From a virus (lineage: Duplodnaviria > Caudoviricetes), in IMG/VR virus record IMGVR_UViG_3300029305_011823: 64,000 nt of DNA. One strand, written 5' to 3'. The notes under the pieces were generated by a model, which saw nothing but the letters and a program-made list of their open reading frames with translations, ran no database searches and had not been told where the DNA came from. Shown here piece by piece: positions 843 to 47,483 of this stretch (the stretch's first letter is position 1; the number at the start of each line of letters is the position of its first letter). Both the position numbers and the translations under genes were made by a program.

Positions 843-3800
843 ATGTCTGATAAAAAGAATAATGTCATAATTGGTGGTTCTTTAATGCCTTCACTTAAAG
901 ATACACCACTTGACGCAAGATCAAGAATCGATACTATTGCCGATATCGGTAATATCGAATTACCTTATGTCGGTATGATGTTTTACGTAAAAGATGAACA
1001 AAAATTCTATGTAGTAAACTCTTTAAAATCGAAAGTTATTAATGGTATAGAAGTAGAAGGAATGCTAATAGATAGATATGCCGAAATAGCCATGGGAAAA
1101 TCTGCATTTGATATAGCAGTTGAAAATGGTTATGAAGGTAATGAATCAGAATGGCTAGCTGAACTTGTTGGACCTCAAGGACCAGAAGGACCAGTTGGAC
1201 CTCAAGGAGAACAAGGTATACAAGGACCTAAAGGTGAACAAGGTCTAGTTGGACCTATGGGACCACAAGGACCAAGAGGGGAACAAGGACCTATGGGACC
1301 TGAAGGACCTCAAGGTTTAAAAGGTGATAAAGGGGACCAAGGTGAACAAGGTATACAAGGACCTCAAGGTGAAATGGGACCTCAAGGACCACAAGGTAAA
1401 GCAGGACCAGAAGGTGAACAAGGTCTTCAAGGACCAATAGGACCAATGGGACCTCAAGGTATACAAGGACCAGAAGGACCTCAAGGACCAGTTGGACCTA
1501 AAGGGGATCAAGGTATCCAAGGTATACAAGGACCTCAAGGTGAAGTAGGACCTAAAGGGGAACAAGGACCACAAGGTCTTCAAGGACCTCAAGGAGAAAG
1601 AGGACCAAAAGGAGATCAAGGACCTCAAGGTGAACAAGGTCTAGTTGGACCTATGGGACCACAAGGACCACAAGGTATACAAGGTGTAAGAGGGGAAAAA
1701 GGGGACCAAGGTGAAGTTGGACCAATAGGACCTCAAGGACCTCAGGGTGTACAAGGTATACAAGGTGAAGTGGGACCACAAGGACCACAAGGTATACAAG
1801 GACCTAGAGGGGAAAAAGGTGAAAGAGGTGCTGATGGTACTTCTGTTAAAATAGTTGGTGTATTAGATGCTGTTAGTGATTTAGATAACCTTGCTAATGA
1901 AGAAATTGGTAATGGTTACATCATAAAAGCAAATGGACACTTATACGTTTGCGTTGAACCAAATAAATTTGTTGATGCTGGTGAAATAAAAGGACCAAAA
2001 GGAGATCAAGGTCCACAAGGGGAACAAGGACCTCAGGGACCACAAGGACCTCAAGGATTCTCTGCATTCCAAGCATGGAAAACATTAGAAGGAAACGCTA
2101 ATAAAACTGTAGAAGACTATATGGAATCAATGAGAGGACCTGCTGGACCAGTTGGACCTCAAGGAGCAGTTGGACCTCAAGGACCACAAGGTATACAAGG
2201 TGAAAGAGGATTCTCTGCTTACCAAGCATGGAGAACATTAGAAGGAAATGAAGAAGGAACTGTAGAAGAATTTATAGAATCTCTAAGAGGACCTCAAGGT
2301 ATACAAGGACCTATGGGAGAAAAAGGTGAACAAGGTGTTCAAGGACCACAAGGTGAACAAGGACCTGTTGGACCAGAAGGACCAATGGGACCTCAAGGAC
2401 CAGTTGGACCTCAAGGTGAAAGAGGACATTCTGCTTATATGGCTTGGAAAACTTTAGAAGGAAATGAAGCAGGTACTGTAGAAGAATTTATAGCTTCTTT
2501 AAAAGGTGAAAAAGGAGATAAAGGTGAAAAAGGGGAACAAGGTTTACCTGGAGAAAAAGGTGAACAAGGTGTTCAAGGACCACAAGGTTTAAAAGGTGAC
2601 CAAGGTGAAATGGGACCTCAAGGACCTCAAGGACTTAAAGGTGAAAAAGGAGATAAAGGTGACCAAGGTGAAGTTGGACCTCAAGGACCACAAGGTTTAC
2701 AAGGTGAAATGGGACCTCAAGGACCTCAAGGTTTACAAGGGGAACAAGGACCTATAGGAGAAACGGGACCACAAGGACCAGTTGGACCACAAGGTATACA
2801 AGGACCAGAAGGACCTCAAGGTGAAAGAGGACCAGAAGGAAAACAAGGACCTCAAGGAGAAACGGGACCACAAGGACCAATGGGACCACAAGGACATTCT
2901 GCTTATATGGCTTGGAAAACTTTAGAAGGAAATGCAAATGGAACTGTAGAAGATTTCATAGCTTCTTTAAAAGGTGAAAAAGGGGAACAAGGTGAAATAG
3001 GACCTCAAGGAGAACAAGGACCTCAAGGTGAAGTAGGACCACAAGGACCAGTTGGACCTCAAGGAGAACAAGGACCACAAGGTGAAATAGGACCTCAAGG
3101 ACCAGTTGGACCACAAGGGGAACAAGGACCACAAGGTTTACAAGGACCTAGAGGAGAAAAAGGTGCGGATGGAACATCTATACGTATAGTTGGTGTTTTA
3201 AATTCTATGGATGAAATAGATTCCATAGTTGGAGAACAAGTTGGGGATTGTTACATAGTTGAAGAGAACGGACACTTAATAGTATTTAATGGAGAAGATG
3301 ATTTTGTTGATTTAGGTAAATTAACAGGACCTCAAGGACCAAAAGGTGATAGAGGGGAACAAGGTGAAAAAGGGGATCCATTCTTATACGAAGACTTCAC
3401 AGAAGAACAACTTGCTGCTTTAGTTGGACCTATGGGACCACAAGGACCTGCTGGAGAAAAAGGAGCAGATGGTATAATAGGTAAAGACGGAGAGAAAGGT
3501 GAAAAAGGGGATCAAGGTGAACAAGGACCTAAAGGAGAAGACGGTTACACTCCAATTAAAGGTGTAGACTATTTCACTCAAGAAGAATTAGATGTGTTAT
3601 TATACGATGATTCTGAAATAAGAGCAATGATAGATGAAGAAAAACCTTATTTAATGGATATAGCTGCTTATCCAACTAGTAGATTCTTATTTGCTTGTGG
3701 ATTACCTATATATGTAGATGTAAATAAAGGACGTAAATATAATACTGAATTACCAGAAGATGAGATAATATGTAGTTATATGTGGAATGAAAGATTAGAA

Positions 3801-5027
3801 TACATTAATGTTCCTGCTGCAGAAGCTGGTAAATTAATGGTATTCGGAGGATACGGACCTAATAATGTTAACGTTAAGAGAAGTTTACCAAATACTAAGA
3901 TAGTTGCTAAAGGAGTTAATATAAAAGGTATCTGTGGAGGTAACTACTTTGAAGGTATAGTTGGTAGATCTGAAATAATCGTTAGAGATTGTAATATGAA
4001 ACAAATTATAGGTGCAGGATGGTGCGGAGCAGCAGTAAATGGAAAACCTGCTAGATTAAACGTCGTTTATGATGTATTTGTAGATTGTGAAAATATGACT
4101 GGTTGTTCATTATTATTTGGTGGACCACAAGGAAACGGTGTAGCTGAAACAGTAGATATGAAACTTAAAAATTGTGAAGTCGGATGGGTTACTATAGGTG
4201 GTTCTAACGGATGTACTAGAAACGGAGTAGTTGAAATAAATGGTGGTACATATACTTGTGTACAAACTACAAATAGAGGTATTGTAAATAATGCTAAAGT
4301 AATATTAGAGGACGGATTAGTTAAAGCTTTATATGCTGGTGGAGAAACTGAAGATAACACAGTAACTGGAATAATAGAAGATTGTGAATTAATACTTAAC
4401 GGCGGTATTGTAAATAAATTTAGCTTAGGAACTAGCAACGGTGTAGAAGGAGCTATAAGACCTCATGGTATAATAGCTGATACTAATGTTGTAGTTGGAG
4501 ACGTTAGTATGCTTAAACATATAGATGATCCTGTTAAAGAAGACTATGAAGCTCAAATTAAAGCTCTTAAGGAGGAACTAGAAATGGCTAAGAAAAAAAT
4601 ACTTGATATGGAATTTGGTGTAGAATATGAATGGATACATGAAGTAAAACAAGAAGAAGTTGATACTATAATATTCAATCGTGAAAATGCACCTAGTTTA
4701 TTCAACGAAATGGACACTATAGAAGAAGCATTTGCTAAAGGTGAAATAGACGAAGAAAAATATAATGAATGGTGGATGCAATTTGAAAATGGTGATGTAT
4801 TCAGAGTTTACGCTTTAAGACTTGCTAGTGATAATAAAGCATTCAATAGATATAATGTATTAATTCCATATGAAGGAAGCACTGTACAACAACCAGGTGA
4901 AGGATTACAAGACTGGGAAGTTATACCAGGATTAGACTGGACTTGGAACTTTGATGGAGAACAAATAGTATTAAATTATATGGCATTATCAAAAATGGTA
5001 TTTGCTATAATGAAAGTTAAAGAATAG
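843..5027 (+). CDS. Collagen-like (Gly-X-Y) fibre protein, probable virion appendage
   Basis: Long GPQGPQGEQ runs interrupted by repeated [24 protein letters not shown] and GADGTSxxIVGVL modules; Gly-rich beta-helix-like C-terminal region. Confidence 0.85.
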
Positions 5028-16128: not shown

Positions 16129-17583
16129 CTATACTCTACAGAAATGACTTAAACCTATTGCTAGGTCTTTTATTGGCATCATGTTACCACTTAATAAACC
16201 ATCATTATGAGATACCATTAAGAACAATCTTGCATTATACTTTCTAGTTGCTTTGATTTGATCTTTAGCTGATAGCTTAGTTATTGTTAAGTTGTCGCCA
16301 TCAAAATCTGCGTTAAGACCACTAAGGATCATAAGAGATATTGCCATTGTATAATCATCTACTCTTTTTGTTACATCTACAATCTTAACTTGTAATATAG
16401 AACCTACGTCTATAGTTGGAGCACGGTTAATTAAGCAATATGTTAAATCTTGTGCTATCATTAATTTGATTATCTTATATATCTTTTCACTGAAATTTAT
16501 ACAACCCATATACCATTCACTATATGCTTGACTTTCAGTTATGTTTTGTGTACTTGCTAATTTTTGTATTATCTCAAATTTATACATCTCTAAGAATGAT
16601 ATATATGATAATATAATTTCATCTGCTGCTAAGTTTGGATTTGATATTATAACGTTTCTTGATGTGTAATTCATTCTTCCTGCTAACACACCTGATTTTA
16701 TAAACCCATCTTTCTTATTAATTGTACTGAACATTTTCTCATATAGTTCATTTACTTTCTTTTGTATATATGGTAATTTCTTATCTACTGATAAAGCATC
16801 ATTTGAATTATTCATTCTAGATACTGAACTAAATATCATATTGTATATCTTATCAGTTCCATTTACAAAGTTGATTTCATTTTGAACCATTGCAAATCTT
16901 AATGCTGAACTAAATACTGGAATATATTGGAAGAATAATTTATCTTTATTAGCTTTTACAAATGCAACATTACCTTCCATATTAGAATTTCTTTTATTCT
17001 TTTCAGCATAATAATCTAATATCTCATCAAATCTTCTTTGGAATTCTATCATTCCTATATTCTTAAATGGTTGATCTTTATCAAATTCAATTTCATCATC
17101 TAATAATGGATTACCAAATTGATCTGTATCTACAAATTTAGGTGGTTGTATAATATTCTCTAATATAGATTGCTTATTCTTTTCACCCATTATATTATTA
17201 AGGTATAAATATAATGCTGGATGAATTATATAATAATCTTTGATTTTAATATAAGCAAATTTTTCTAAATCTATATCAACTAATCTAACATTACTTCTAC
17301 AATATGGACATATAGATGATTCATGAGATTTACCTTCTAGATATCCACATTCACAACTATATCTTTCTTTAAATGCATTCTCACTTGACATTTCACTATA
17401 GAAGAAATCCGAACGGATTCCTCCTTTATTATAACTACCATCTGTTGTCTTCTTATCTTTTATCGGTTCATAGACAACGAATGCTTTTCCTGCTTTTAAA
17501 TCTAATTCTGCCTCTTTATCTATATTAGAAATTTGTAACATAAATCCATTCTTTTCAATCCCATTATTTCTTTCTATTATCAT
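16129..17583 (-). CDS. Phage multisubunit RNA polymerase beta' N-terminal subunit (catalytic), probably non-virion RNAP
   Basis: Zn finger CECG...CPYC, GRMNYTSRNVI, INRAPTI and catalytic NADFDGD; lies downstream of early-type promoters. Confidence 0.92.
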   Translation of the reverse strand: MIIERNNGIEKNGFMLQISNIDKEAELDLKAGKAFVVYEPIKDKKTTDGSYNKGGIRSDFFYSEMSSENAFKERYSCECGYLEGKSHESSICPYCRSNVRLVDIDLEKFAYIKIKDYYIIHPALYLYLNNIMGEKNKQSILENIIQPPKFVDTDQFGNPLLDDEIEFDKDQPFKNIGMIEFQRRFDEILDYYAEKNKRNSNMEGNVAFVKANKDKLFFQYIPVFSSALRFAMVQNEINFVNGTDKIYNMIFSSVSRMNNSNDALSVDKKLPYIQKKVNELYEKMFSTINKKDGFIKSGVLAGRMNYTSRNVIISNPNLAADEIILSYISFLEMYKFEIIQKLASTQNITESQAYSEWYMGCINFSEKIYKIIKLMIAQDLTYCLINRAPTIDVGSILQVKIVDVTKRVDDYTMAISLMILSGLNADFDGDNLTITKLSAKDQIKATRKYNARLFLMVSHNDGLLSGNMMPIKDLAIGLSHFCRV

Positions 17584-19245: not shown

Positions 19246-20457
19246 CTAGAATGTCATATCGTCTAAATTGATTTCATTAGTTTTAACTGATGTATCATGC
19301 ATTGCTTTCATCTTTAAGTTTAATAACGCACCTGTTAGTGTTGATGTTGTTAACCCTATAGAATCTATTTGTAATTTTTCAAATAATCTTCCTGCACATG
19401 TTAAACAAACTCCTGAATCACAACCACAATACATAATCGATCTTAATTTAACTTTCTTCCCAACATATTTACCTATACTATCATCATCTAATAAAACAGC
19501 TTTTCCATTATCCATTATATATCTATACATAAATTTAGATTTCATTGATGGTGGTATAACTATTTCAACATATCCTTTAGAACCGCAATCTTGTACGTCT
19601 TTTCTTAATACAACCGCTTGACCTAAACTTGAAACTTGTTTAGCTTTATATCCTGATACTGCCGTACCACAAGATTTAGGATATTGTGCATTTACTGTAT
19701 TTGTACCAGATGCAGCTATCTCTTCTTTACTTATACCATCAAATAAGTTATTTTCTATAAATTGATACTTACCTATAGTTTTATTGAATACTGGTCCTTT
19801 TACTATACTAAGCTGTTTATAGTTGTTTGATATAGAACCCCTTGCTCCTGAATAATATAAATCCATTGCAGGGTCGTCACCTATTTCTTTTTCAGCAAGT
19901 TTAACTAATTCTTTTTCGATTGCTGACATTACCATAACGTCACCTTTTTCTAAGGCTTCTTTATTTTCTTTAATAAGCTCAGCTTTACGTTTCATAACTG
20001 CAGGAACTGGTTTTAATCCTCTCATTGTAAATGATGCTGCTAATGGTTCATGGAATTGCATTCCTAACCATTGTATTCTATCAAAATAATCACCGAAATC
20101 CACTGTAGTTATTTTATCATCTAATAATAATTTAGATAATTTACTTTCAAGACTTTTTAGTCCATCAGCATCTATAACATCGTTTATATAACCTAAATGA
20201 ACGCCAAATCTAGCTTCTATTATAAACTTATTAAATATAAAAGAACCAACTGTAGTTATAACATCTTCTTTATTTATATATTCTCCAGCTTTTAATAAGA
20301 ATCTATCATCTGGTTCAAATTTAGATTTCACTTCTACTACTTTTCCATCAACTTTTTTAATATGGTCTGCAAATAAATCCATACCAAGTTCATAAGTTAT
20401 ATCTTCAGGTTTAAGTGATAATAAATAAGCTTTCTCTTCAGGTGTAATTCTACGCAT
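19246..20457 (-). CDS. RNA polymerase beta' C-terminal subunit, probably virion RNAP
   Basis: SGARGS, bridge-helix-like TAVSGYKAKQV, DCGS, and Zn site RSIMYC..GVCLTCAG. Confidence 0.88.
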   Translation of the reverse strand: MRRITPEEKAYLLSLKPEDITYELGMDLFADHIKKVDGKVVEVKSKFEPDDRFLLKAGEYINKEDVITTVGSFIFNKFIIEARFGVHLGYINDVIDADGLKSLESKLSKLLLDDKITTVDFGDYFDRIQWLGMQFHEPLAASFTMRGLKPVPAVMKRKAELIKENKEALEKGDVMVMSAIEKELVKLAEKEIGDDPAMDLYYSGARGSISNNYKQLSIVKGPVFNKTIGKYQFIENNLFDGISKEEIAASGTNTVNAQYPKSCGTAVSGYKAKQVSSLGQAVVLRKDVQDCGSKGYVEIVIPPSMKSKFMYRYIMDNGKAVLLDDDSIGKYVGKKVKLRSIMYCGCDSGVCLTCAGRLFEKLQIDSIGLTTSTLTGALLNLKMKAMHDTSVKTNEINLDDMTF

Positions 20458-37775: not shown

Positions 37776-40700
37776 TTATTCTCCATATATTGGTTGGTCT
37801 GCAGTCCATGCAGTATTTGCTGCCTGTGCAGTAGCGTAGTTTGTTAATTTAGTACAACCTCTAAGTGCTCCTGCGAATCCGTTAGAGTCTGCTCCACCCA
37901 TAGCGGTGAATTTAGCACCATTCCAGAATTCAGGTGCAGTACCTTCAAGAGATGAACAACCGTAGAACATACCATAAATATTTTTAAGCTTAGTATTTCT
38001 ACCTCCACCATTTAAGAAGTTAGGTCCTATACTACTAACTTTTGAGAATGCAAACATTTGAGCTGCACTTGTTATAGTATTTATTGAGTTAGCAAATAAT
38101 AATGGAGAAACTGCTCCAGTAACATTTGTACATCTGAATAAACAAGAAATATTTGTAACTTTATTTTGTTTACTAAACATTTGTGGATGTATATTCGCAG
38201 TACTTGGTATACCAGGCATTGCACGGAATATTGATGAACAGTTAACAAGTTCTGGACACTTATCAAATAACATTGGACTACATATATAATCTATACCAGT
38301 CTCAGTTTCATGATAAAGTTCAGAAATTTTTTCACAGTCATAGAATAATCTTGAAACATCTTGTAATTTAGTATATTTAATATTGTTATTTTCTGTAAAT
38401 AATAAATCGTGTGGTATACCACCAGTTATTTTCTTACATGCATAGAACATACTTGCTATTGAAGTTAATTGGATACAGTTTGCAAGTAATCCTGGAACGA
38501 CAACTTCAGTTTTTGGTCCTACCTTAGGTAATACGTAATAATTACCACTTGCGTTGATTATAGTTGCTAAGTTTGGTGATAATGTAACAACGTCTGAATA
38601 AGCAACTTGTGTGAATGGGTCTTCCATTACTTCAACAACTTGCATAGCTCCTTCAGTTCCTTTAGCTACAAGTTCGTATTCTACTATACCTTCAACTTCG
38701 TTATATTGTCCAACAGGTATAGGTTGATCTAATCCTTCACAACTTGCAAACATACTTGCTGTAGTAGTGATAGTTTTTCTACACGCATCAAATAATCCTA
38801 GAGGAATAGATCCTACAATATTTTTACAACCGTTAAATAGATTATCAGTTCTTTGTAAACTAGCACAGCCTTCTAACATATCATCAGGTATTTGTCCTGT
38901 GTATAAACTACAACCTTGCATAAATCCTGCCACGTTAGTTAACGCTATACCATTTTTAAACCATTCTGCACATATACCAGTTTGCACATCATTATCGCTA
39001 GTAGCATCTAAATTTACACCTGTTAATAATGAACAGTTAAGGAACATATATGAAACGTTCTTTAGTAACGATTTAGAATTTACAAGTAAATTTCTAGGAA
39101 TATGTCCTTCAATACTACTACATCCAGCGAACATGTAATATGTATCAGATAAAAGTTTATTTTCTATAAATAAGTCTTCACTTATACCATTATTACGAGT
39201 TTCAACTTGTGAACCTTTATAGTAATGACAATCTTTAAGAGAAGTACAGTTTCTAAACATTCCTGAAACATTTTGCACTTTAGGAACAACGTTTAAGAAT
39301 GTTTCATGATAACCAGTTATTTGAGTTCCTTCAAATATACCTCTAGATGTATATCTAGTAGTTCCCATATAAGTATTATCCTCATGGTCCATACCTATAT
39401 TTAGTAAGTTTTCAGCTCCTAAGAAGAAAGTTGACTCAACAATACCTTCCATTGATGTACAGTTACCAAACACACCTACAGCTTTTGTTAAATTAGGGAA
39501 TTTAGCAGTACCTCCTAATTTGTTAAATAAACTTGCTGGTAATTTTGGTAATTTACTACAGTTTTGGAACATACCATTTATCTTAACAAGTTTAGTATTT
39601 GTTGATAAGAATCCATCAGGTATTTCACAGTTAAGGTTATTAGAACAACCAAAGAACATAAAACTAGCATCAGTTAAATAAGTTAACGGTTTCATCATTT
39701 CTCCTAATCCAAGTTCTTCAGAAACTGCTAAGTTAGTACAATTGTTGAACATTTGTTTTGTTGAAGTAATATTATAACTTCCAATAAATATATCAGGACT
39801 TTCATTTATATAATCAGTAAGACTTCCGTCAGATGCAAACATTTGAGATACAGTAGTTAAATTAGGTTTATTATGTAATAAACTTGCTCCTACTGTTGTT
39901 AAATTTCTCATTCTACCGAATGTATTATTACAGTTAGTTAGTGTTGCACCGCATGGGTCAAATAAATCTCCAGGAACTGTTGTGTATCCAGTTATATCGA
40001 AGAATCCTGAAACGTTTTGTAATTTAGTATTCATAGCAAATAAATCCGATGGTATTGTTCTAGTAGTATCTTCTGCAGTACCTAATATAGTTTCATAACC
40101 GTCAAGACCTGCCATATGACACATACCTGTCGCACTAGTTAATGATTCACCACATGCATATAGTATTTTCTTAAGCATAGGTGTTTTCATACGGAAACAT
40201 CTATCACATGTACTATTAGCACTAGTTACACCAGTAAAGTTTAAAGATAAACCATCTATGTCTGATAAAACGAAACATTGTTGGAACATAGAATTTATAC
40301 TAGTATTTCCGTTAGTTAATACACCTGTTATCTTAGTAAGACCTCTACAGTTATAGAATAATGATGCTAAAGGACCAGTATAATTGATATTTCTTATTTC
40401 TGTAAAATAAGTACAGTTACTTAGTTTAAGTGTAGTAAGTTTTTTCAATTGACTCATGTCTAATACAACATCGTCGACATCAGCTGATCCATATTGTATT
40501 TTTCGTATACTTGAAGTCGATGCATCTAAGTAAGTTAAATTATCCCATAATTTAGCATTAGGATCACCATTTACAGCTTTGAATGCTTCTTCTTCATTTA
40601 AATATTTAGGTAATCTTAATGTATGAACAGTATCTGTTTGTGATATTATAAGTTTATTTAATTTATACATTGAGTATAATTTAAGGTCATTCATTACAGG

Positions 40701-43700
40701 ACTTGTATTTCCTGACATATTTAATGTTACTATATTATAACTGTTAGTAACGTCGAATCCAGCTATTGATTTACAACCAGATAAGTTTACTTCTGTAACA
40801 TTTTCACAGTTAGTTACTATGAAGTTTTGTATTGTTGAGTTAGCAACGTCAACAACTGCTATTCTGTTACATCTATTAAGTTCAAATTTATTAATATTTT
40901 CACAGTTTGTTATTTTTATGTCATCTAGGAATTCTGCACCGTCTATAGATACGTTTTTAATACTACTACTAGTTAAGTTTATAGAGTTAAGAACTGTATC
41001 TGTTGGGAACATTACCCCTGTAAATTTAGTGTAAGATAAATCAACTGTTTTTAAGTTAACACAGTTCGATAAATCTAGAGTTTGTGATTCTGTTGCTGTA
41101 CCTAATCTGTATGAGTTAGTACAGTTAAGATGTCTTAAGTATTTATTGTTACCTATTTTTAGACCTTCCATACGGTTTGAATATGAAACGTCTAGTTCAA
41201 GTAATTTAAGTGCTTTTTCTATTCTGGCTTCAGTTAAGTTAAGTGTTTGTAATCTATTAATTTGCTTAATATTGCCTGCTCCAGTTATACCCATCTCTTT
41301 ATTTATACCTTTTATAGGGAATGAGAATAATGCACCTTCATACTCTATTCCAGTATCAGGGTCTTTATATCTAGATTCAGGTCCAACATATCCAGTAACT
41401 TTACCGTCAGCTCCAGAACCGATAGTTATTGTTACATACTGTGGAGAATAAACACTTACACCAACATAACAACGTAAAGTTGTTCCTTCCCCTTGTCCGT
41501 AAGCAGCATCTGAACGTAATCCTATATAACTATTTAAAGTATCAGGTTGTGCTGCTGATTCTTCGTATCCAAATACTGTGTCTAAGAATATTAATCTCTC
41601 TTTTAAGAATTTTTTATATTTTTGTGCTCTATTACCATGAAGCATTTGTAAGTAAGTAGAGTCGGATGCTGTTGTTTGAGATAAATATTTAGATGCAGCA
41701 TCTTTATTGAAATAAATTTTTCCTATCTTGTCATCAGTGTCAGCTGAAATAGCTTTGAATATATTATCAACGTCATATACTTTAGCATTTCTTAATGTAG
41801 TATATGCTTTTTTTATTTCTTCTTTAAATTCAGTTCCGAATGCATTCCATAATTTACTAGTTCTAGTATTATAGTTCATATATCTTAAATCTGTTGTAGT
41901 ATCTGTATAACTATATCCTATAAAGTTTTTATCCCCATCCAATAAAGTTGGAGATAATGAAGGTATTATTTCTGAGTCAACACGGATTATCTCAGTACCT
42001 GTATTTGATAATCCCATTTGTGTATCCATATCGTATGGTCTAGGGTAGAATTTAACTCCATCCCATGTATCCCACATACTATTTTTCATTCTGTTACTTT
42101 CATTATTCATAAATTACTGACCATATATTAATATGGCGGGAAAGGTTCTTCTTAAATCAGTCTGGTTACTGATGACCTCTCCTCTCTAGTTTCATTGTTA
42201 GATTATATCTAGAGATCAGACTGTTGCATACTTGAAAGTTCAAGCCTTACTCGCTCAGTCGTTGTTGGTGATTATAATCATATCATTTCCCAATGCAATT
42301 GTACCAATTCTCCATTTATCAATATTTCTCCATACCAATCATGACCTTTTATCAATTCATGATTGAGATGCTTTGTAAAGGTTTTTTTATTAAATTCTAT
42401 ACCAAACTCCTCTTTCATACACTCTAAAGCTTTTCGTTTACTTGGAAATACCCTATCAAGTTCAATACAACGTACATGTGTACCTTGTGTATAACTACTT
42501 TTAGAATATTGTATTTCTATAGATTCTTTGCTTCTATTAGGTTCCTTACGATTTCTACAAGCTTCTTTCATTCGTGCTTTTTGTTCAGGAGTTCTTTTCT
42601 TTCCAATGTTCTTTAGTCTTCTCTTCTCAATAGTTTCTTGTGATTGTTTCATAGAAAATCCACTAGTTCCTTCACCACCCCATGTGCAATTAGTCAAATA
42701 ATTATCATTACTTTTATCATTGAAACCATGAATATCTATACTATAACCTTCATTAAATACCAAATCATGTATAGTTTGCATTTCTAGTTCCAACGCCTCA
42801 CGCTCAGTTAAATTATTATATATTATCTCAACTACACAATCAACAGAATTTATTATATTCATAAAATGATCATTTCTACTATCCAATCTAAGATATCTAT
42901 TATTTTTACCTTTACCTATATAAAATATACTTCCGTTATCTAAACGAATGTATTGATATACGTAATAACATTTTTCCATTCACATCACTCCATTAGTTTA
43001 ATAATAGAGAATTGTTTTATCAATTATAATCTTCCAAGGCGTTGTCCTTCTCAGGAGTTTCGCCGTATATCAGAGTAAGTTTTTATACTGAGGCATAAAC
43101 TTTACCACAGTTATCTACTTGTGTAAATACGTGCATTTGTAGATAATAAGCTATCATGTATGTTAAATCAAGATGTTTTTCTAAGTCGTCCTTAAATGTA
43201 CCATTATCTATTGAGTTACTTACCCAGTTAACTAATTCAATCATTGGTTTATAAGTAGCTTCTTCGTCATCTTCACAATAACTATATCTAGCTTCAAAGT
43301 CTGACATTATATAATCAGTTTCACTATAGTCAGCAGAGAATTCTTCGAATGTCATATATTCTTCTATAGTTCCATCATTTATTCCTGCTTTAAATTGATC
43401 CATAGTACATTTTTCAGAAGTAAGACCATATTTTTCTAAATATTCTTTATAAGAGTCTTCTAAATAATAATTATAAACGTTTACTATAGATTCAGATAAT
43501 TTATAGAAACATCCAGCTGTGTCACTTGCATTGGCAGTTGCTTCATATGAAATACAACTATTTTTACCATTACCGATTAAATCACCGATTTCATCATATA
43601 AATCACATTCGAATCCTAATTCTTTACCCTCTTTATCTATATTAAACATAAATGAACCTACTAATATATTTTCAGCTGGTTTACCATCAGCATCTACTCC

Positions 43701-46700
43701 ACCTTCATTATAGTAAACTATACAAGGGAAACCGTCTATAGCATCATGATAACCATCTCTCTTAGCAGGTGACATTCCTCCTAAAGCATCTATAACTTGA
43801 TTATAGAATCTTGCAGTAGGCGTATTGTTTTTGTGTGATTGTTCCATGTACATTCTGTTACTTTCATTATTCATAAATTACTGACCATATATTAATATGG
43901 CGGGAATGGATCTTCTTTAGGTCGTTATTTCAGACCGCCCATTCCTCTCTAGTTTCATTGTTAGATTATATCTAGAGATCAGACTGTTGCATCATTAATC
44001 ATAAATGCCTTTTCGCTCAGTCGTTGTTGGTGTAATTTAAACGTTTTTATTTTCAAAATGTAGATATAAAAGTTCACCTGTTATTATATTTCTACCCGCA
44101 TGTTTTCGTTTTCCTCTACAAACTGCAGATATTGATGCATGTGAACAATTTATATTATATTCTTCTAGTAATATTTTTTCAGCTTCTCTATATGAATTAA
44201 AAGTTCTATTCAACTCTACACAATAAACTTCATTTCTATTAGGGCTAGCTAGACGTATTTTTTCTTTATGCTCTTCAGTATATGTTTTTCCATAATGTGG
44301 TGATAACTCACCTTTTTTACCGTACATACCGTTTTTCTCACCAAATAACGAACATTTTTTACGTTCTTCTTCGGTATGTGTGTAACCACTCACACCTTCA
44401 CCACCCCATGTTTGATTTACAAGATGATTTTCATTTTTAGTGTTATAACCATTTATTTCAATACTATAACCTTCATTAAACACTAAATCATGAATAGTCT
44501 TAACTTCTAATTCAAGAGCTTCATTTTCAGTTAAATTATCATATAATATTTCAATTTTATAGTCTATACTATTTATTATGTTTTTAAAATGTTTATTCCT
44601 ACCTGTATGATGTTCATAACATCTATTACCAGTACCTTTACCTATATAAAAATAATTATTTTTGTCTAATCTTACATAAGCATAAATGTAAAATCTATTA
44701 TCCATATTTATCACCTTCATTTTAAAACGTTTAAATAACTTCCAAGGCGTTGTCCTTCTCAGGAGTTTCGCCGTATATCAGAAAAGGTTTTTATAGTGAG
44801 ACTATACTTAATCACACTTTAATGTATATGTACTATCTTTAACCCAGTCGTCTTCCATACCTGGAGGAACGAATTTTAATTTAGATGTTTTTCCTTCATC
44901 CACCCAAGCTTTAATCTTATAGTTTTTAACAGGGTATTGTAGTGATGATGTACCTTGTAAATATACATCCATGTTATCATAAACTATTATGTTACCAGCA
45001 CCATCGTTATACTCCATTACACAATCAACGAATGTTGATTTAGATTGTTTTTTATCCTTGATTGAATGTAATGTTGCAAATGTTGCATTGTTTTCATATC
45101 CATCACCTATTTTTCTTTTAAATACTATAGTAGGTAATGTAGCTAAGTCTGTATTATTCTTATCGTTTTCAAGTTGTTGTTCTTCTGAATCGTATATATG
45201 TGATACATAGTTTTGTAAAACTTCTGATGATTTTAAGAAACTATTGTAAATACGTATGAATTTTATTTCACATTCACCGAAATTAGTAAATGAAACATTT
45301 CCTGCAGCATCTATCATTCTACATGCATTAAGTACTAAAGGATAAGCTTCTTTAGCACCGTCTAAGAAGTTTTCTTTACTTTCATCTTCATTTATAGTAG
45401 TACATGAACACATAACACCATTTATATATACACGTAGTGTATATGTAGGGTTAACGTCTTCTATCATATTTTGACCAACTTTTTCAAATGTTCTTATGTC
45501 TTTATCTACTACAAGTGTTATATGAACCCATTCATCTTCCATAAATCCAAGACTATTTACTTGAGCATTTGACGCTATAGCCATAGTATCATATGTTATA
45601 TTAATTCCTGGTTCATTTAATGGGTTTTCCATATTATTATTGAATTTTGTACATGTCATTACACGTGCATTCAATTCCCCTATATTTCTAGTACGTATAG
45701 CAGTTTCTATTGTTATACCTTTTTGTCCACCCATTTTAAATATTGAGAATGGGCTATAAGGTTTAGCTTCACCATTAACCATTTCAACAAGTTCACCATA
45801 TGATTCACCAGTGAATTTAAGCATCATTTCCCCATCTTCACTATCAGGTATTGATTCATCTACATGTTTCCATCCATTTGAACTGTAATTTAGTCCATGT
45901 AATAATATTCTGTATTTATCACCTGTGTGTCTAGATGAGTTACCCCAAATATTAGGACTACCGTCATTGTTCCCTTTAGTATTAGCGTCAAAGTAAGCTA
46001 TTAAGTTTGCGTTATCGATAAAAGGAACTTTTTGGTAAAGTGATTCAACAACTTCCATCATAACTTCAACAGGATCTGATTCAACACCACCATCGACAGT
46101 ATAACCTTTAATAATATATTTATATGTACCAGCTTCTAATTTACCAACTGACCAATAGTTAGTAACATTAACTTTTGCAGATATACCAGTATTACTAGTT
46201 TCTGCAACTAACTCTAAGTGTCCATTAACGTCTTTATACATTTGACCTTTCATTACAAAATAGTCTGCAATTCTACTGACTATTTTAAATGGTATTGATA
46301 TATACATGTTAGTATCATATTGTATACCTTTAGACTCATCTAATATAGCTATCTCTCCAGCTTTAAGAACTCTTATGTCATATGATAATTCATGAGATTT
46401 AAATGTACCTTCAGTTGTATCGGATACTGAACTTCCAGTATATGCTTGTGCTGTAATAGTATATAAACCTGCTTTATTTATTACAGGTGATTTCCATATA
46501 GTAGATAAGAATGTCCCTTCTAAAGCAAAACTATCATCATATACAGTTTCACCCGTTCCATTATTAACTAATTTAATTCTCATTTTCATACTTTGACTAG
46601 CATCTGCTAAACTAGCCATGTAAGGGAATTCTATTATATCCCCTTCTTCATATATAGCAGTTAATAATGTTTGTTCAAATGTACTTGTTAATTTCAATCC

Positions 46701-47417
46701 CCCAACTATAACTTTATAACTTAATGTTTCTGGAGCAGGAACTGTTAAATAGTCTGTTGCAGTAACAGTTATCTCATATGTACCATCTGATGTTATTTTT
46801 CCTAAATTAACTATAACGTTACCTTTAGCACCACTCCATGATTTAGCTAATGACCCATTGATATATACACGATATTTACCATCACCGAATGTATTAGCTG
46901 TGAAGTTAAATTTTATAATCAATTCTTGATCATCATTTAAATACATCTTAGTACCTTCAGGCATACTAGGATCGTATGATAACTTAGGTATTGTATTTTC
47001 TTTTTTATTTATTTTATCCCAAGTTGCTGGAACTTTTACACCATTTTCATTTTCTTTAACGGAAGTTATTATATAAAATCCTGGTTTAGCTCCACCATCG
47101 TCAGCATCGGATTCGTCAGCTATTACGTAGAATAATCCACCTACAGTAGCTTTGCTTATTTTCATATTAGCAAAATTAGGAACTATTGTTGTAGATGTAT
47201 TACTTACTGGTCCCCATACACCAGGTGTACCACCTTGATTACAAATCCACATAGGTTCGTCTATAGATGTAACTGGATTCGTATTAATAATCATATCACC
47301 AGTTAAATATGTACCCTCAGTTGGAATAGCTGAACCCTTCATAATTCTATTTTCTGTAAAATATGTATTCTGTTTATCAGAAATAAGTTTATTTTTTCTG
47401 TTATTTTCTTCAGCCAT
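37776..47417 (-). CDS. Spliced ~2554-aa protein: Ig/LamG-like region + CotH-like kinase domain + long LRR/BspA repeats; join(47417..44811, 43850..43104, 42086..37776)
   Basis: Removing the two introns restores TLKCD|YMEQSH and VDNCG|KNSMWDTWDG..PYDMD; QGTSS..YPVKNYK precedes them; all exons stay in frame. Confidence 0.85.
42087..43103 (-). mobile_element. Group I intron 2 (1017 nt)
   Basis: Exon ends in U (TGTGGT|), P1 pairs with GCCTCA via a U.G pair, P7 GACTG/CAGTC, terminal G (..AACAGAATG|AAA). Confidence 0.9.
42278..42979 (-). CDS. GIY-YIG homing endonuclease (intron 2)
   Basis: YVYQY...FYIGKG..NR; NUMOD3-like SQETIEKRR; own AACA-N6-TA promoter at 43005..43016. Confidence 0.88.
   Translation of the reverse strand: MEKCYYVYQYIRLDNGSIFYIGKGKNNRYLRLDSRNDHFMNIINSVDCVVEIIYNNLTEREALELEMQTIHDLVFNEGYSIDIHGFNDKSNDNYLTNCTWGGEGTSGFSMKQSQETIEKRRLKNIGKKRTPEQKARMKEACRNRKEPNRSKESIEIQYSKSSYTQGTHVRCIELDRVFPSKRKALECMKEEFGIEFNKKTFTKHLNHELIKGHDWYGEILINGELVQLHWEMI
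43851..44810 (-). mobile_element. Group I intron 1 (960 nt)
   Basis: Exon ends in U (GTGTGAT|), P1 pairs with GTCTCAC via a U.G pair, same core as intron 2, terminal G (..AACAGAATG|TAC). Confidence 0.9.
44037..44705 (-). CDS. GIY-YIG homing endonuclease (intron 1)
   Basis: YIYAY...FYIGKGTGNR; NUMOD3-like HTEEERKK and TEEHKEKIR; ATG at 44705 after AAGGTGA. Confidence 0.88.
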   Translation of the reverse strand: MDNRFYIYAYVRLDKNNYFYIGKGTGNRCYEHHTGRNKHFKNIINSIDYKIEILYDNLTENEALELEVKTIHDLVFNEGYSIEINGYNTKNENHLVNQTWGGEGVSGYTHTEEERKKCSLFGEKNGMYGKKGELSPHYGKTYTEEHKEKIRLASPNRNEVYCVELNRTFNSYREAEKILLEEYNINCSHASISAVCRGKRKHAGRNIITGELLYLHFENKNV

Positions 47418-47483
47418 TTTTATTTTCAACTCCTTCTAAAAATAAATTATATTTATTCATTACAAAATTGTTTCTCCTAATAA

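What the first reader, a model, noticed from the sequence alone, without database searches (positions are those of the whole stretch)
42087..44810. Twin group I introns with one ribozyme core retargeted to two kinase motifs of a virion-type gene
Seen: both introns share identical blocks (43-nt CTGATATACGGCG...CCTTGGAAG, and a 54-nt 3' end ...AACAGAATG). Their internal guide sequences differ to match their own exons (GTCTCAC for GTGTGAT, GCCTCA for TGTGGT), and they carry related but diverged GIY-YIG genes. They sit 747 nt apart at the conserved LKCD|Y and DNCG|KN motifs. Known: phage group I introns mostly occupy nucleotide-metabolism, replication, RNAP, terminase or lysin genes. Inference: local intron duplication with guide retargeting, and the targeted motifs mark a conserved, probably essential catalytic domain.
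Basis: partly seen in the sequence, partly recalled or inferred. Interest (0 to 1): 0.75.

Follow-up and report, generated by a model that had tools for sequence, protein, structure and literature searches.

The report
Twin mobile introns split phage kinase gene
Two self-splicing group I introns, each carrying its own homing-endonuclease gene, cut one giant gene of a jumbo gut phage exactly at two active-site motifs of its CotH-type kinase domain; this is a well-supported but not fundamentally new kind of mobile element.

Summary
On the minus strand, intron A (44810-43851) and intron B (43103-42087) share identical blocks of 44, 20, 50 and 56 nt. They lie 747 nt apart and each holds a GIY-YIG-type ORF. 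Intronless homologues read TLKCD-YMEQSH and VDNCG-KNSMWD straight through, so three ORFs make one gene of about 2558 codons.

Rfam gives no hit. The introns nevertheless belong to a large phage intron family, at least 119 IMG/VR loci, mostly in major-head and tape-measure genes. Its group I fold, including the P3/P7 pseudoknot, has strong covariation support: 98.5% of cells paired, 33 of 48 pairs compensatory. A model built only from ORF-less relatives hits both window introns at 74 and 72 bits.

The interrupted domain has a CotH kinase fold (Z 27.6). Intron B sits inside the catalytic D-x4-N loop.

The "local duplication" reading is only partly right. Each intron also occurs alone at its site in other phages, and the endonucleases group by site. 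The ribozyme scaffolds are mosaic: intron B's 3' domain is 91% identical to a site-A intron of another phage.

Verdict: a new member of a known kind, of moderate interest. Other first-stage notes of this scan cover the same stretch.

The parts
44811..47429 (-). Exon 1 (873 codons, ends ...TLKCD). It covers the N-terminal Ig-like and LamG-like region and the start of the CotH-like domain.
   Evidence: ORF. Weak Laminin_G_3 and Shr-like Pfam hits. phrog_9915 positions 86-684. Contiguous with exon 2 in intronless P0001, P0002 and P0003.
43851..44810 (-). Group I intron A (960 nt). It follows the U of GAU and ends in G.
   Evidence: Model R1 hits 43851-44049 (74.1 bits, E 4.7e-22) and 44667-44793 (16.8 bits).
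44037..44705 (-). Homing endonuclease gene A (222 aa, GIY-YIG-type) in the P6a loop. A GAAGGTGA Shine-Dalgarno sequence lies before the ATG at 44705; an upstream ATG at 44720 is also open.
   Evidence: Sits in the site-A clade of the endonuclease tree. 98% identical to P0194.
43104..43850 (-). Exon 2 (249 codons, YMEQSH...QVDNCG). It encodes most of the CotH-like kinase domain up to the catalytic loop.
   Evidence: 79% identical to intronless L001/L002. 113 homologues, most of them 2000-4000 aa proteins. Fold evidence.
42087..43103 (-). Group I intron B (1017 nt). It follows the U of GGU and ends in G.
   Evidence: Model R1 hits 42087-42330 (72.1 bits, E 1.9e-21) and 42986-43085 (17.8 bits).
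42278..42979 (-). Homing endonuclease gene B (233 aa, GIY-YIG-type) in the P6a loop, with a GGAGTGA Shine-Dalgarno sequence upstream.
   Evidence: phrog_314 homing endonuclease, E 2.6e-11. 210 homologues. Sits in the site-B clade.
37776..42086 (-). Exon 3 (1436 codons, KNSMWDTWDG...). It covers the end of the kinase domain and then LRR/DUF285 repeats.
   Evidence: phrog_9915 positions 1031-1535. Contiguous in intronless homologues.
44729..44802 (-). Intron A 5' ribozyme half: guide GUCUCACU, P3 5' strand CCUUUUC, P4 GGCG/CGCC, P5 UCCU-GAGA-AGGA, P6 UUGG, and the P6a 5' strand.
   Evidence: Helix coordinates. The helices match the family structure tested.
43851..44042 (-). Intron A 3' ribozyme half: P6a/P6 3' strands, P7 GACUG/CAGUC, P3 3' strand GAAAAGG, P8, P9, P9.1 and P9.1a, P9.2, a terminal hairpin, and ...GAAAGUAACAGAAUG.
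43024..43094 (-). Intron B 5' ribozyme half: guide GCCUCAGU, P3 5' strand CUUACUC, the same P4-P6 as intron A, and P6a GAUUAUAA.
42087..42277 (-). Intron B 3' ribozyme half: P6a UUAUAAUC, P6, P7, P3 3' strand GAGUAAG, P8 CUUGAACUUUCAAG, P9, P9.1 GGAGAGG/CCUUUCC, P9.2, and the 3' end.

Best explanation
Two mobile group I introns interrupt one gene of about 2558 codons in a jumbo gut phage. The protein has a LamG-like N-terminal part, a central CotH-family kinase domain and C-terminal LRR/DUF285 repeats.

Each intron folds into the same ribozyme: P1, no P2, P3-P8 with the P3/P7 pseudoknot, and an extended P9-P9.3 tail. Each carries a GIY-YIG-type homing endonuclease gene in the P6a loop. Splicing after GAU and after GGU would rejoin ...TLKCD-YMEQSH... 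and ...VDNCG-KNSMWD... (inferred, not observed).

The introns belong to a large, uncatalogued phage intron family. Its hallmark is the 3' end GGUCAGUA-hairpin-GAAAGUAACAGAAUG, and it lives mainly in major-head and tape-measure genes.

Both insertion sites are independent homing sites in the phage population. Each endonuclease lineage is tied to its own site, with a diverged C-terminal DNA-binding half. The ribozyme scaffold has moved or recombined between the two sites. Retargeting needs only about two guide-sequence changes, because the two P1 targets, AGUGUGAU and ACUGUGGU, match at 6 of 8 positions.

The sites are the Lys-motif strand (LK[CA]D) and the catalytic D-x4-N loop. These are the most conserved coding stretches of the gene. 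Homing endonucleases are known to favour such stretches (established knowledge; reviewed in PMC3073962, which I did not read for this point).
For: Junctions and frame: intronless homologues of 2525, 2551 and 2608 aa read straight through both sites. Exon 2 is 249 codons.

Ribozyme:
- 40 ORF-less relatives support all 10 helices: 98.5% of cells paired against 79% in shuffles, 33 of 48 pairs with changes on both sides, and slid controls at 34-44%.
- Rfam Intron_gpI aligns an ORF-less relative in the same register as my helix assignment, but only at 21.2 bits.
- Model R1, built without the window's sequences, hits both introns at 74 and 72 bits, hits their 5' halves, and finds nothing in intronless loci.

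Mobility:
- Intron A occurs alone in L133 and L135; a site-B intron occurs alone in L138. L129 and L130 carry site-B introns, and L131's short contig shows only the site-B end. There are none in L001-L006.
- Several divergent homologues end exactly after VDNxG with different read-through tails.

Endonucleases group by site: the site-A clade has support 93/93 and the site-B clade 98/99.

Ribozyme mosaic: intron B's 3' domain is 91% identical to L133's site-A intron, against 67-70% to other site-B introns. L138's site-B intron carries intron A's P9.1 module.

Kinase:
- Foldseek finds CotH 5jd9 at E 6e-7.
- VIA-align gives Z 27.6 over 343 of 359 residues, with the next match at 11.5.
- Pfam CotH hits 6 of 34 homologues weakly, and CotH is the precomputed family on related genes.
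- K98, D100, D340, N345, D362 and D364 are invariant. The D340-to-D362/D364 spacing of 22-24 residues compares with 23 between the CotH catalytic residues D228 and D251 (PMC7821199).
Against:
- Rfam gives no hit at its gathering score on the window or on 20 related loci.
- P1 has a U.U mismatch in both introns, and P10 is weak.
- The ribozyme tree is poorly resolved: no starred branches, and the intron B + L133 pairing has only 85/85 support. Exchange between sites therefore rests mainly on shared modules and pairwise identities.
- Pfam GIY-YIG models do not reach threshold on either ORF.
- The residue-level match to the CotH catalytic residues is inferred from spacing and invariance, not from an alignment.
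Confidence: 0.85

Rival explanations
1. One intron duplicated locally within this genome and its guide was retargeted. The two endonuclease genes then diverged in place.
For: Within the first sample of family 3' domains, A and B were each other's nearest neighbours: 77% against at most 63%. They share 44-, 50- and 56-nt identical blocks. The endonuclease N-terminal halves are clearly homologous.
Against: Each intron has same-site copies in other phages where it occurs alone. The endonucleases fall into separate site-specific clades that include much more distant host genes, L137 for site A and L139/L140 for site B. Intron B's 3' domain is closer to L133's site-A intron (91%) than to intron A (83%). 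Any duplication therefore predates this genome, and the later history includes exchange.
Confidence: 0.12
2. The introns were acquired independently, with no exchange. The near-identity of the cores reflects only purifying selection on a shared ribozyme family.
For: The family core is strongly conserved: there are many invariant columns in A3.
Against: The identical blocks include hairpins and loops that vary freely in the family, namely the L9 loop, P9.2 and the terminal hairpin. P3, P8 and P9.1 are swapped as whole modules among introns at sites A and B. Selection alone does not predict that pattern.
Confidence: 0.1
3. The inserts are not spliced. Either the gene is dead, or it is expressed as three separate proteins starting at the in-frame MNNESNRM codons supplied by the intron 3' ends.
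For: ORF finders call three ORFs. Each downstream ORF starts at an in-frame ATG inside the intron 3' end. Public gene calls make the same split (P0008 and P0015).
Against: The breaks fall inside a single folded kinase domain, with one of them in the catalytic loop. The exons stay conserved: 79% identity to intronless alleles, with no frame damage. The ribozyme core and both endonuclease ORFs are intact and conserved in other samples. No Shine-Dalgarno sequence is apparent before the MNNESNRM start (read).
Confidence: 0.04

Closest known systems
Phage T4 td intron with I-TevI (group I intron carrying a GIY-YIG endonuclease ORF in a P6 loop); comparison from my own knowledge
   Same: A self-splicing group I core, with a GIY-YIG-type endonuclease ORF looped out of P6a. 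The insertion lies in a conserved coding stretch, and the intron is present or absent among related phages.
   Different: There is no P2 and no P7.1/P7.2, and there is a long P9-P9.3 tail. Rfam's model scores it below threshold. The host gene is a giant CotH-kinase/LRR protein rather than a nucleotide-metabolism gene. Splicing and cleavage are untested here.
Staphylococcus phage Twort orf142, one gene with three group I introns (Landthaler and Shub 1999, from my own knowledge; a search on Twort, group I intron and exon skipping found 12 papers)
   Same: Several group I introns lie in one phage gene, and skipping of the exon between them is possible.
   Different: Here the two introns share near-identical, mosaic scaffolds, and each has its own site-specific endonuclease. 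No RNA data are available.
Cluster J mycobacteriophage introns in capsid and tail genes (PMC3706429)
   Same: Group I introns lie in virion structural genes. A 156-bp intron segment that is 98% identical occurs at two different target genes, so one ribozyme serves two sites.
   Different: Those copies are in different genes and phages. Here two copies sit 747 nt apart in one gene, at two motifs of one catalytic domain.
Bacillus CotH spore-coat kinase (PDB 5jd9/5jda; PMC7821199)
   Same: The fold matches over 343 of 359 residues at Z 27.6. There is an invariant D-x4-N loop and a downstream D-x-D.
   Different: Sequence identity is 13%. The domain has large insertions and sits inside a 2558-aa phage protein with LamG-like and LRR parts. 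Phage CotH proteins are described as unstudied (PMC8008677).

Membership tests
Group I intron | U at the last exon position, forming a U.G pair with the internal guide (P1) | tested here: met
   GAU| pairs with GUCUCAC, and GGU| pairs with GCCUCA. That gives 6 of 7 and 5 of 6 pairs including the U.G, each with one U.U mismatch.
Group I intron | Terminal G at the intron 3' end | tested here: met
   Both introns end ...ACAGAAUG, and the frame resumes exactly after that G.
Group I intron | Conserved core with P4-P6 and P3-P8 domains and the P3/P7 pseudoknot, supported by covariation | tested here: met
   Family alignment A3: 48 pairs, 98.5% paired, and 33 pairs with changes on both sides (4 of 7 in P3, 1 of 5 in P7). 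The window introns align to this model and form each helix.
Group I intron | Match to Rfam RF00028 at its gathering score | tested here: not met
   There were no hits on the window or on 20 related loci. The best result was 21.2 bits, against a gathering score of 50, on the ORF-less relative L035, aligned in the same register as my helix assignment. This is a database criterion, not a property of the RNA class.
Group I intron | Removal restores an uninterrupted host ORF | tested here: met
   Intronless alleles P0001-P0003 and many others read TLKCDYME and VDN[CA]GKN without a break.
Group I intron | Guanosine-initiated self-splicing | not testable with these tools
GIY-YIG homing endonuclease | GIY and YIG motifs about 10 residues apart, followed by a conserved Arg, Glu and Asn | tested here: met
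   ORF A has YIY-x10-YIG-KGTGNR, and ORF B has YVY-x10-YIG-KGKNNR. Both then have EALELE and GYSI.
GIY-YIG homing endonuclease | Significant match to a curated GIY-YIG model or a solved structure | tested here: inconclusive
   Pfam LEM-3_GIY-YIG gives E 0.014 and 0.073, below its cut-off. PDB 9u7u, a GIY-YIG domain protein, gives E 0.085 over 26 residues. phrog_314 'homing endonuclease' gives E 2.6e-11 for ORF B. NUMOD3 is found on many homologues.
CotH-family protein kinase | CotH fold | tested here: met
   The model of P0001:756-1283 has pLDDT 81.9. Foldseek finds 5jd9 at E 6.4e-7 with probability 1.00. VIA-align gives Z 27.6, rmsd 3.6 and 343 residues aligned.
CotH-family protein kinase | Catalytic Asp and metal-binding Asp (CotH D228 and D251) | tested here: inconclusive
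   D340-x4-N345 and D362/D364 are invariant, and their spacing is 22-24 residues against 23 in CotH. No residue-level superposition was available.
CotH-family protein kinase | Pfam PF08757 at threshold | tested here: inconclusive
   There was no hit on the window's exons or on P0001-P0003. 6 of 34 homologues hit weakly, best E 8.4e-5. PF08757 is the precomputed family for related genes in L130 and L133.

The most novel reading that the evidence does not exclude
The gene hosts a two-site intron population in which the parts evolve semi-independently. The endonucleases are old and locked to their sites. The ribozyme scaffold is a shared, recombining module that is repeatedly copied between the Lys-motif site and the catalytic-loop site, by gene conversion or reverse splicing into a look-alike P1 target. 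A further unexcluded possibility is that the two near-identical ribozymes occasionally pair across exon 2. That would skip it in frame (249 codons) and yield a kinase-less isoform of the giant protein.
Probability: 0.3. Interest if true: 0.65.

Novelty: new member of a known kind. Interest (0 to 1): 0.5.

Why it matters
- It corrects the annotation. Three "hypothetical" ORFs and two endonuclease ORFs become one giant CotH-kinase protein plus two mobile introns. Public gene calls make the same mistake (P0008, P0015).
- It exposes a large phage group I intron family that Rfam's model does not reach. The family sits mainly in capsid and tape-measure genes, so split structural genes in phage metagenomes are probably under-recognised.
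- The locus is a natural system for asking how ribozyme and endonuclease co-evolve. Related phages carry no intron, one, or two, and there are at least four insertion positions within two catalytic motifs.
- The intron sites independently flag the active-site residues of an unstudied phage kinase family.

Tried and rejected
- Rfam found nothing on the window at either the gathering or the E-value threshold. It also found nothing on MaeS, L007 and L008 or on 20 family loci.
- GenBank phages held no DNA match to the 5-kb region and no protein match to exon 2.
- Exact searches of IMG/VR found nothing for the 29-nt P4-P5 block or the 36-nt 3' block.
- Pfam gave no kinase hit on the split exons or on the intact middle of three homologues. 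A PDB sequence-profile search with A2 found nothing. The fold search was needed to identify the domain.
No whole genome is held for this window.
- I rejected the idea that the differing P3 and P6a helices keep the twin introns from mispairing. L133's site-A intron carries intron B's P3, so the P3 variants are not tied to a site.
- I rejected a pairing between the invariant CUGA of J3/4 and the UCAG after P9.2. L084, L008 and L137 change the G without any compensating change.
- The two homing sites share no extended DNA similarity: 23 of 60 flanking bases match, and the likeness is confined to the P1 octamer.
- A ribozyme ML tree was too poorly resolved to settle the direction of transfer.
Full report
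**What is there.** The finding's coordinates span exactly from the 3' end of one intron to the 5' end of another, on the minus strand.
- Three ORFs of 873, 263 and 1444 aa run in series. Two ORFs of 227 and 233 aa lie between them.
- Intron A is 44810..43851 (960 nt) and intron B is 43103..42087 (1017 nt).
- With those boundaries the exons are 873 codons (ending TLKCD), 249 codons (YMEQSH...QVDNCG) and 1436 codons (KNSMWDTWDG...), all in one frame.
- The aligned introns share identical blocks of 44, 20, 50 and 56 nt, separated by completely different stretches.
- A 41-nt probe from the 5' block occurs exactly twice in the window, against none expected by chance.

**The three ORFs are one gene.**
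- A scan of IMG/VR with exon 2 found six loci in phage contigs of up to about 260 kb.
- In L001, L003 and L006 a single ORF of 2525, 2551 or 2608 codons covers the region. It reads ...YTLKCDYMEQSHKNNT... and ...QVDN[CA]GKN[SA]M[WF]DTW... without a break.
- A search of 1.8 billion representative proteins with exon 2 gave 113 hits. Most are proteins of 2000-4000 aa with the match near residue 800-1100.
- phrog_9915 matches exon 1 at profile positions 86-684 and exon 3 at 1031-1535, leaving the gap where exon 2 belongs.

**The inserts are group I introns, although Rfam finds nothing.** Rfam gave no hit on the window at either threshold. I derived a fold by hand:
- P1 is formed by the exon end and the guide.
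- There is no P2.
- P3 is CCUUUUC/GAAAAGG in intron A and CUUACUC/GAGUAAG in intron B.
- P4 is GGCG/CGCC.
- P5 is UCCU-GAGA-AGGA.
- P6 is UUGG/CCAA.
- P6a flanks the ORF and differs completely between A and B.
- P7 is GACUG/CAGUC.
- P8 is a variable hairpin.
- Then come P9, P9.1 with an inner hairpin, P9.2, a last hairpin, and the 3' end GAAAGUAACAGAAUG (coordinates).

A blastn hit to an unannotated stretch of Microcystis phage MaeS showed the same layout, with compensating changes in P3, P5, P7 and the P9 helices.

Many of these are ORF-less introns of about 250 nt.

Forty distinct ORF-less members were aligned (A3). The proposed structure, including the P3/P7 pseudoknot, was counted on that alignment:
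- 98.5% of 1843 cells form standard pairs, against 79% in shuffles.
- 33 of 48 pairs show changes on both sides.
- The covariation score is 0.497, against 0.150 in shuffles.
- Sliding the partners by 1-3 columns drops pairing to 34-44%.

Rfam's Intron_gpI model aligns one ORF-less member in the same register as my helix assignment, but only at 21.2 bits against a cut-off of 50.

A covariance model built from A3 alone (R1) was searched against the window and related loci:
- It hits the window at 43851-44049 (74.1 bits) and 42087-42330 (72.1 bits).
- It hits the two 5' halves at 16.8 and 17.8 bits.
- It hits nothing else in the window above noise.
- It hits nothing in the intronless loci.

Both introns follow a U and end in G. 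P1 has a U.G at the splice site and a single U.U mismatch at the same position in both. P10 is weak.

**What the host domain is.** Pfam does not recognise the split exons or the intact middle of three homologues. A structure predicted for P0001:756-1283 from 34 homologues has mean pLDDT 81.9.
- Foldseek matches Bacillus cereus CotH kinase at E 6e-7 and nothing else below 0.1.
- VIA-align gives Z 27.6, 343 of 359 residues and rmsd 3.6. The next chains are other atypical kinases at Z 11.5 or less.
- Pfam CotH hits 6 of the 34 homologues weakly. It is the precomputed family on several related genes.
- In the alignment, T96, K98, D100, D340, N341, G343, K344, N345, D362 and D364 are invariant.
- CotH is inactivated by changing D228 or D251, which lie 23 residues apart (PMC7821199). 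Here D340 and D362/D364 lie 22-24 apart.

So intron A follows LKCD, the strand that carries the invariant Lys. Intron B splits the D-N-C-G|K-N catalytic loop. The residue equivalence is inferred from spacing and invariance, not from a superposition.

Whether the protein is a virion component was not shown. The gene lies next to an endolysin gene and among nucleic-acid enzymes and split multisubunit RNA polymerase genes. Phage CotH proteins are described in the literature as unstudied (PMC8008677).

**The endonucleases.**
- Both ORFs begin with Y-[IV]-Y, about ten residues, then YIGKG...NR, followed by EALELE and GYSI. These are the GIY-YIG signature residues.
- They are 41% identical overall. 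By my reading of the alignment they are about 60% identical over the first 110 residues and barely alignable in the C-terminal half, where such enzymes bind DNA.
- Curated GIY-YIG models stay below threshold. phrog_314 "homing endonuclease" hits ORF B, and many of its 210 homologues carry NUMOD3.

**Both sites are homing sites in a population, not a private duplication.**
- L007 and L008 are other metagenome copies of intron A's 3' end and intron B's 5' end.
- L133 and L135 carry only intron A, at FKCD|YMEQ.
- L138 carries only intron B, at VDNCG|.
- L129, L130 and L131 are more distant homologues that carry R1-family introns at the same VDxxG|KN position. L131's copy has no ORF.
- L137 is a distant homologue with twin introns: one at FKAD|YME with a site-A-type endonuclease, and an ORF-less one three codons upstream of site B, at VD|NLGKN.
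- L139 and L140 carry an intron that R1 does not match, with a 379-aa ORF, at LKADFM|. They also carry an R1 intron at site B.
- Several representative proteins end right after VDNxG with at least three kinds of read-through tail.

Taken together, these loci show at least four insertion positions within the two motifs.

**Endonuclease and ribozyme histories disagree.** In a maximum-likelihood tree the endonucleases group by site:
- The site-A clade (window, L133, L135, L137) has support 93/93.
- The site-B clade (window, L138, L139, L140, L130) has support 98/99.
- L129 has a separate lineage.

The ribozymes do not group by site:
- Intron B's 3' domain is 91% identical to L133's site-A intron, 83% to intron A, and 67-70% to other site-B introns.
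- L138's site-B intron has intron B's 5' half (93%) but intron A's P9.1 module.
- P3, P8 and P9.1 behave as swappable modules among these four phages.
- The blocks between those modules are identical even where the wider family varies freely.
- The ribozyme tree is weakly resolved. It pairs intron B with L133's site-A intron at 85/85.

The two P1 targets, AGUGUGAU and ACUGUGGU, match at 6 of 8 positions, so retargeting needs only about two guide changes. The wider flanks are unrelated, with 23 of 60 bases matching. That fits two endonucleases with different DNA-binding halves.

My reading is that there are two old, site-specific endonuclease lineages, and that one ribozyme scaffold has been copied or converted between the sites within this phage clade. 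The direction and mechanism (gene conversion, reverse splicing, or endonuclease-gene invasion of a copied ribozyme) are unresolved.

**Comparison with what is known.**
- Group I introns with GIY-YIG ORFs in a P6 loop are classical (T4 td with I-TevI; from my own knowledge).
- Several introns in one phage gene are known from Twort orf142 (my own knowledge; literature search).
- Introns in capsid and tail genes, and one intron segment reused at two targets, are published for Cluster J mycobacteriophages (PMC3706429).
- All ten sampled 3' exons of this family were major-head or tape-measure genes.
- A search for papers holding both 'group I intron' and 'CotH' found four, none about phages by their titles and abstracts.

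What is new here:
- the host, a giant CotH-kinase gene of a jumbo gut phage;
- the family's absence from Rfam's reach;
- the mismatch between ribozyme and endonuclease histories at a twin-intron locus.

**Limits.**
- Splicing, cleavage and kinase activity are all inferred.

Noticed in passing
L010-L128 (IMG/VR loci): A large phage group I intron family shares the 3' end GGTCAGTA-hairpin-GAAAGTAACAGAATG. All ten sampled 3' exons were major-head or tape-measure genes. Rfam does not detect the family at its gathering score.
   Followed up: partly
L009 (Microcystis phage MaeS MT362618), about 1340-2632: There is an unannotated intron of the same family (R1 65 bits). It lies between two 'hypothetical protein' CDSs (QJT70405 and QJT70402) and holds CDS QJT70403 inside it. 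The flanking CDSs look like one split gene, possibly a tape measure.
   Followed up: partly
L137:4881-6577: A distant homologue of the gene also has twin introns. One, at FKAD|YME, carries a site-A-type endonuclease. The other is ORF-less (R1 140.8 bits) and sits at VD|NLGKN, three codons upstream of the window's site B.
   Followed up: partly
L139:1492-3014 and L140:1562-3105: A different insert, not matched by model R1, carries a 379-aa ORF with a weak DUF723 hit. It interrupts the same gene family at LKADFM|, two codons downstream of site A. Its intron class was not determined.
   Followed up: no
L130:7539-8119: Two R1 matches lie in tandem (43 and 96 bits) downstream of one endonuclease ORF at site B. 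This may be two adjacent introns or a nested arrangement.
   Followed up: no
window 43851-43874 and 42087-42110: The last 24 nt of both introns (ATGAATAATGAAAGTAACAGAATG) are in frame with the next exon. Gene callers therefore start exons 2 and 3 at a spurious MNNESNRM. The same artefact appears in public protein sets (P0008).
   Followed up: yes
window 843-5027: A 1394-aa protein has a very strong collagen triple-helix repeat signal (Pfam E 1e-89, 7 stretches).
   Followed up: no
window 16129-17583, 19246-20457, 54653-56734: Several separate ORFs match phage multisubunit RNA polymerase beta-subunit families. This fits a jumbo phage with split RNA polymerase genes.
   Followed up: no
L133:1-1340 and L130:1458-3986: Related phages carry a second CotH-domain gene just upstream of the giant gene. 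In L133 a glucosaminidase gene lies between the two.
   Followed up: no
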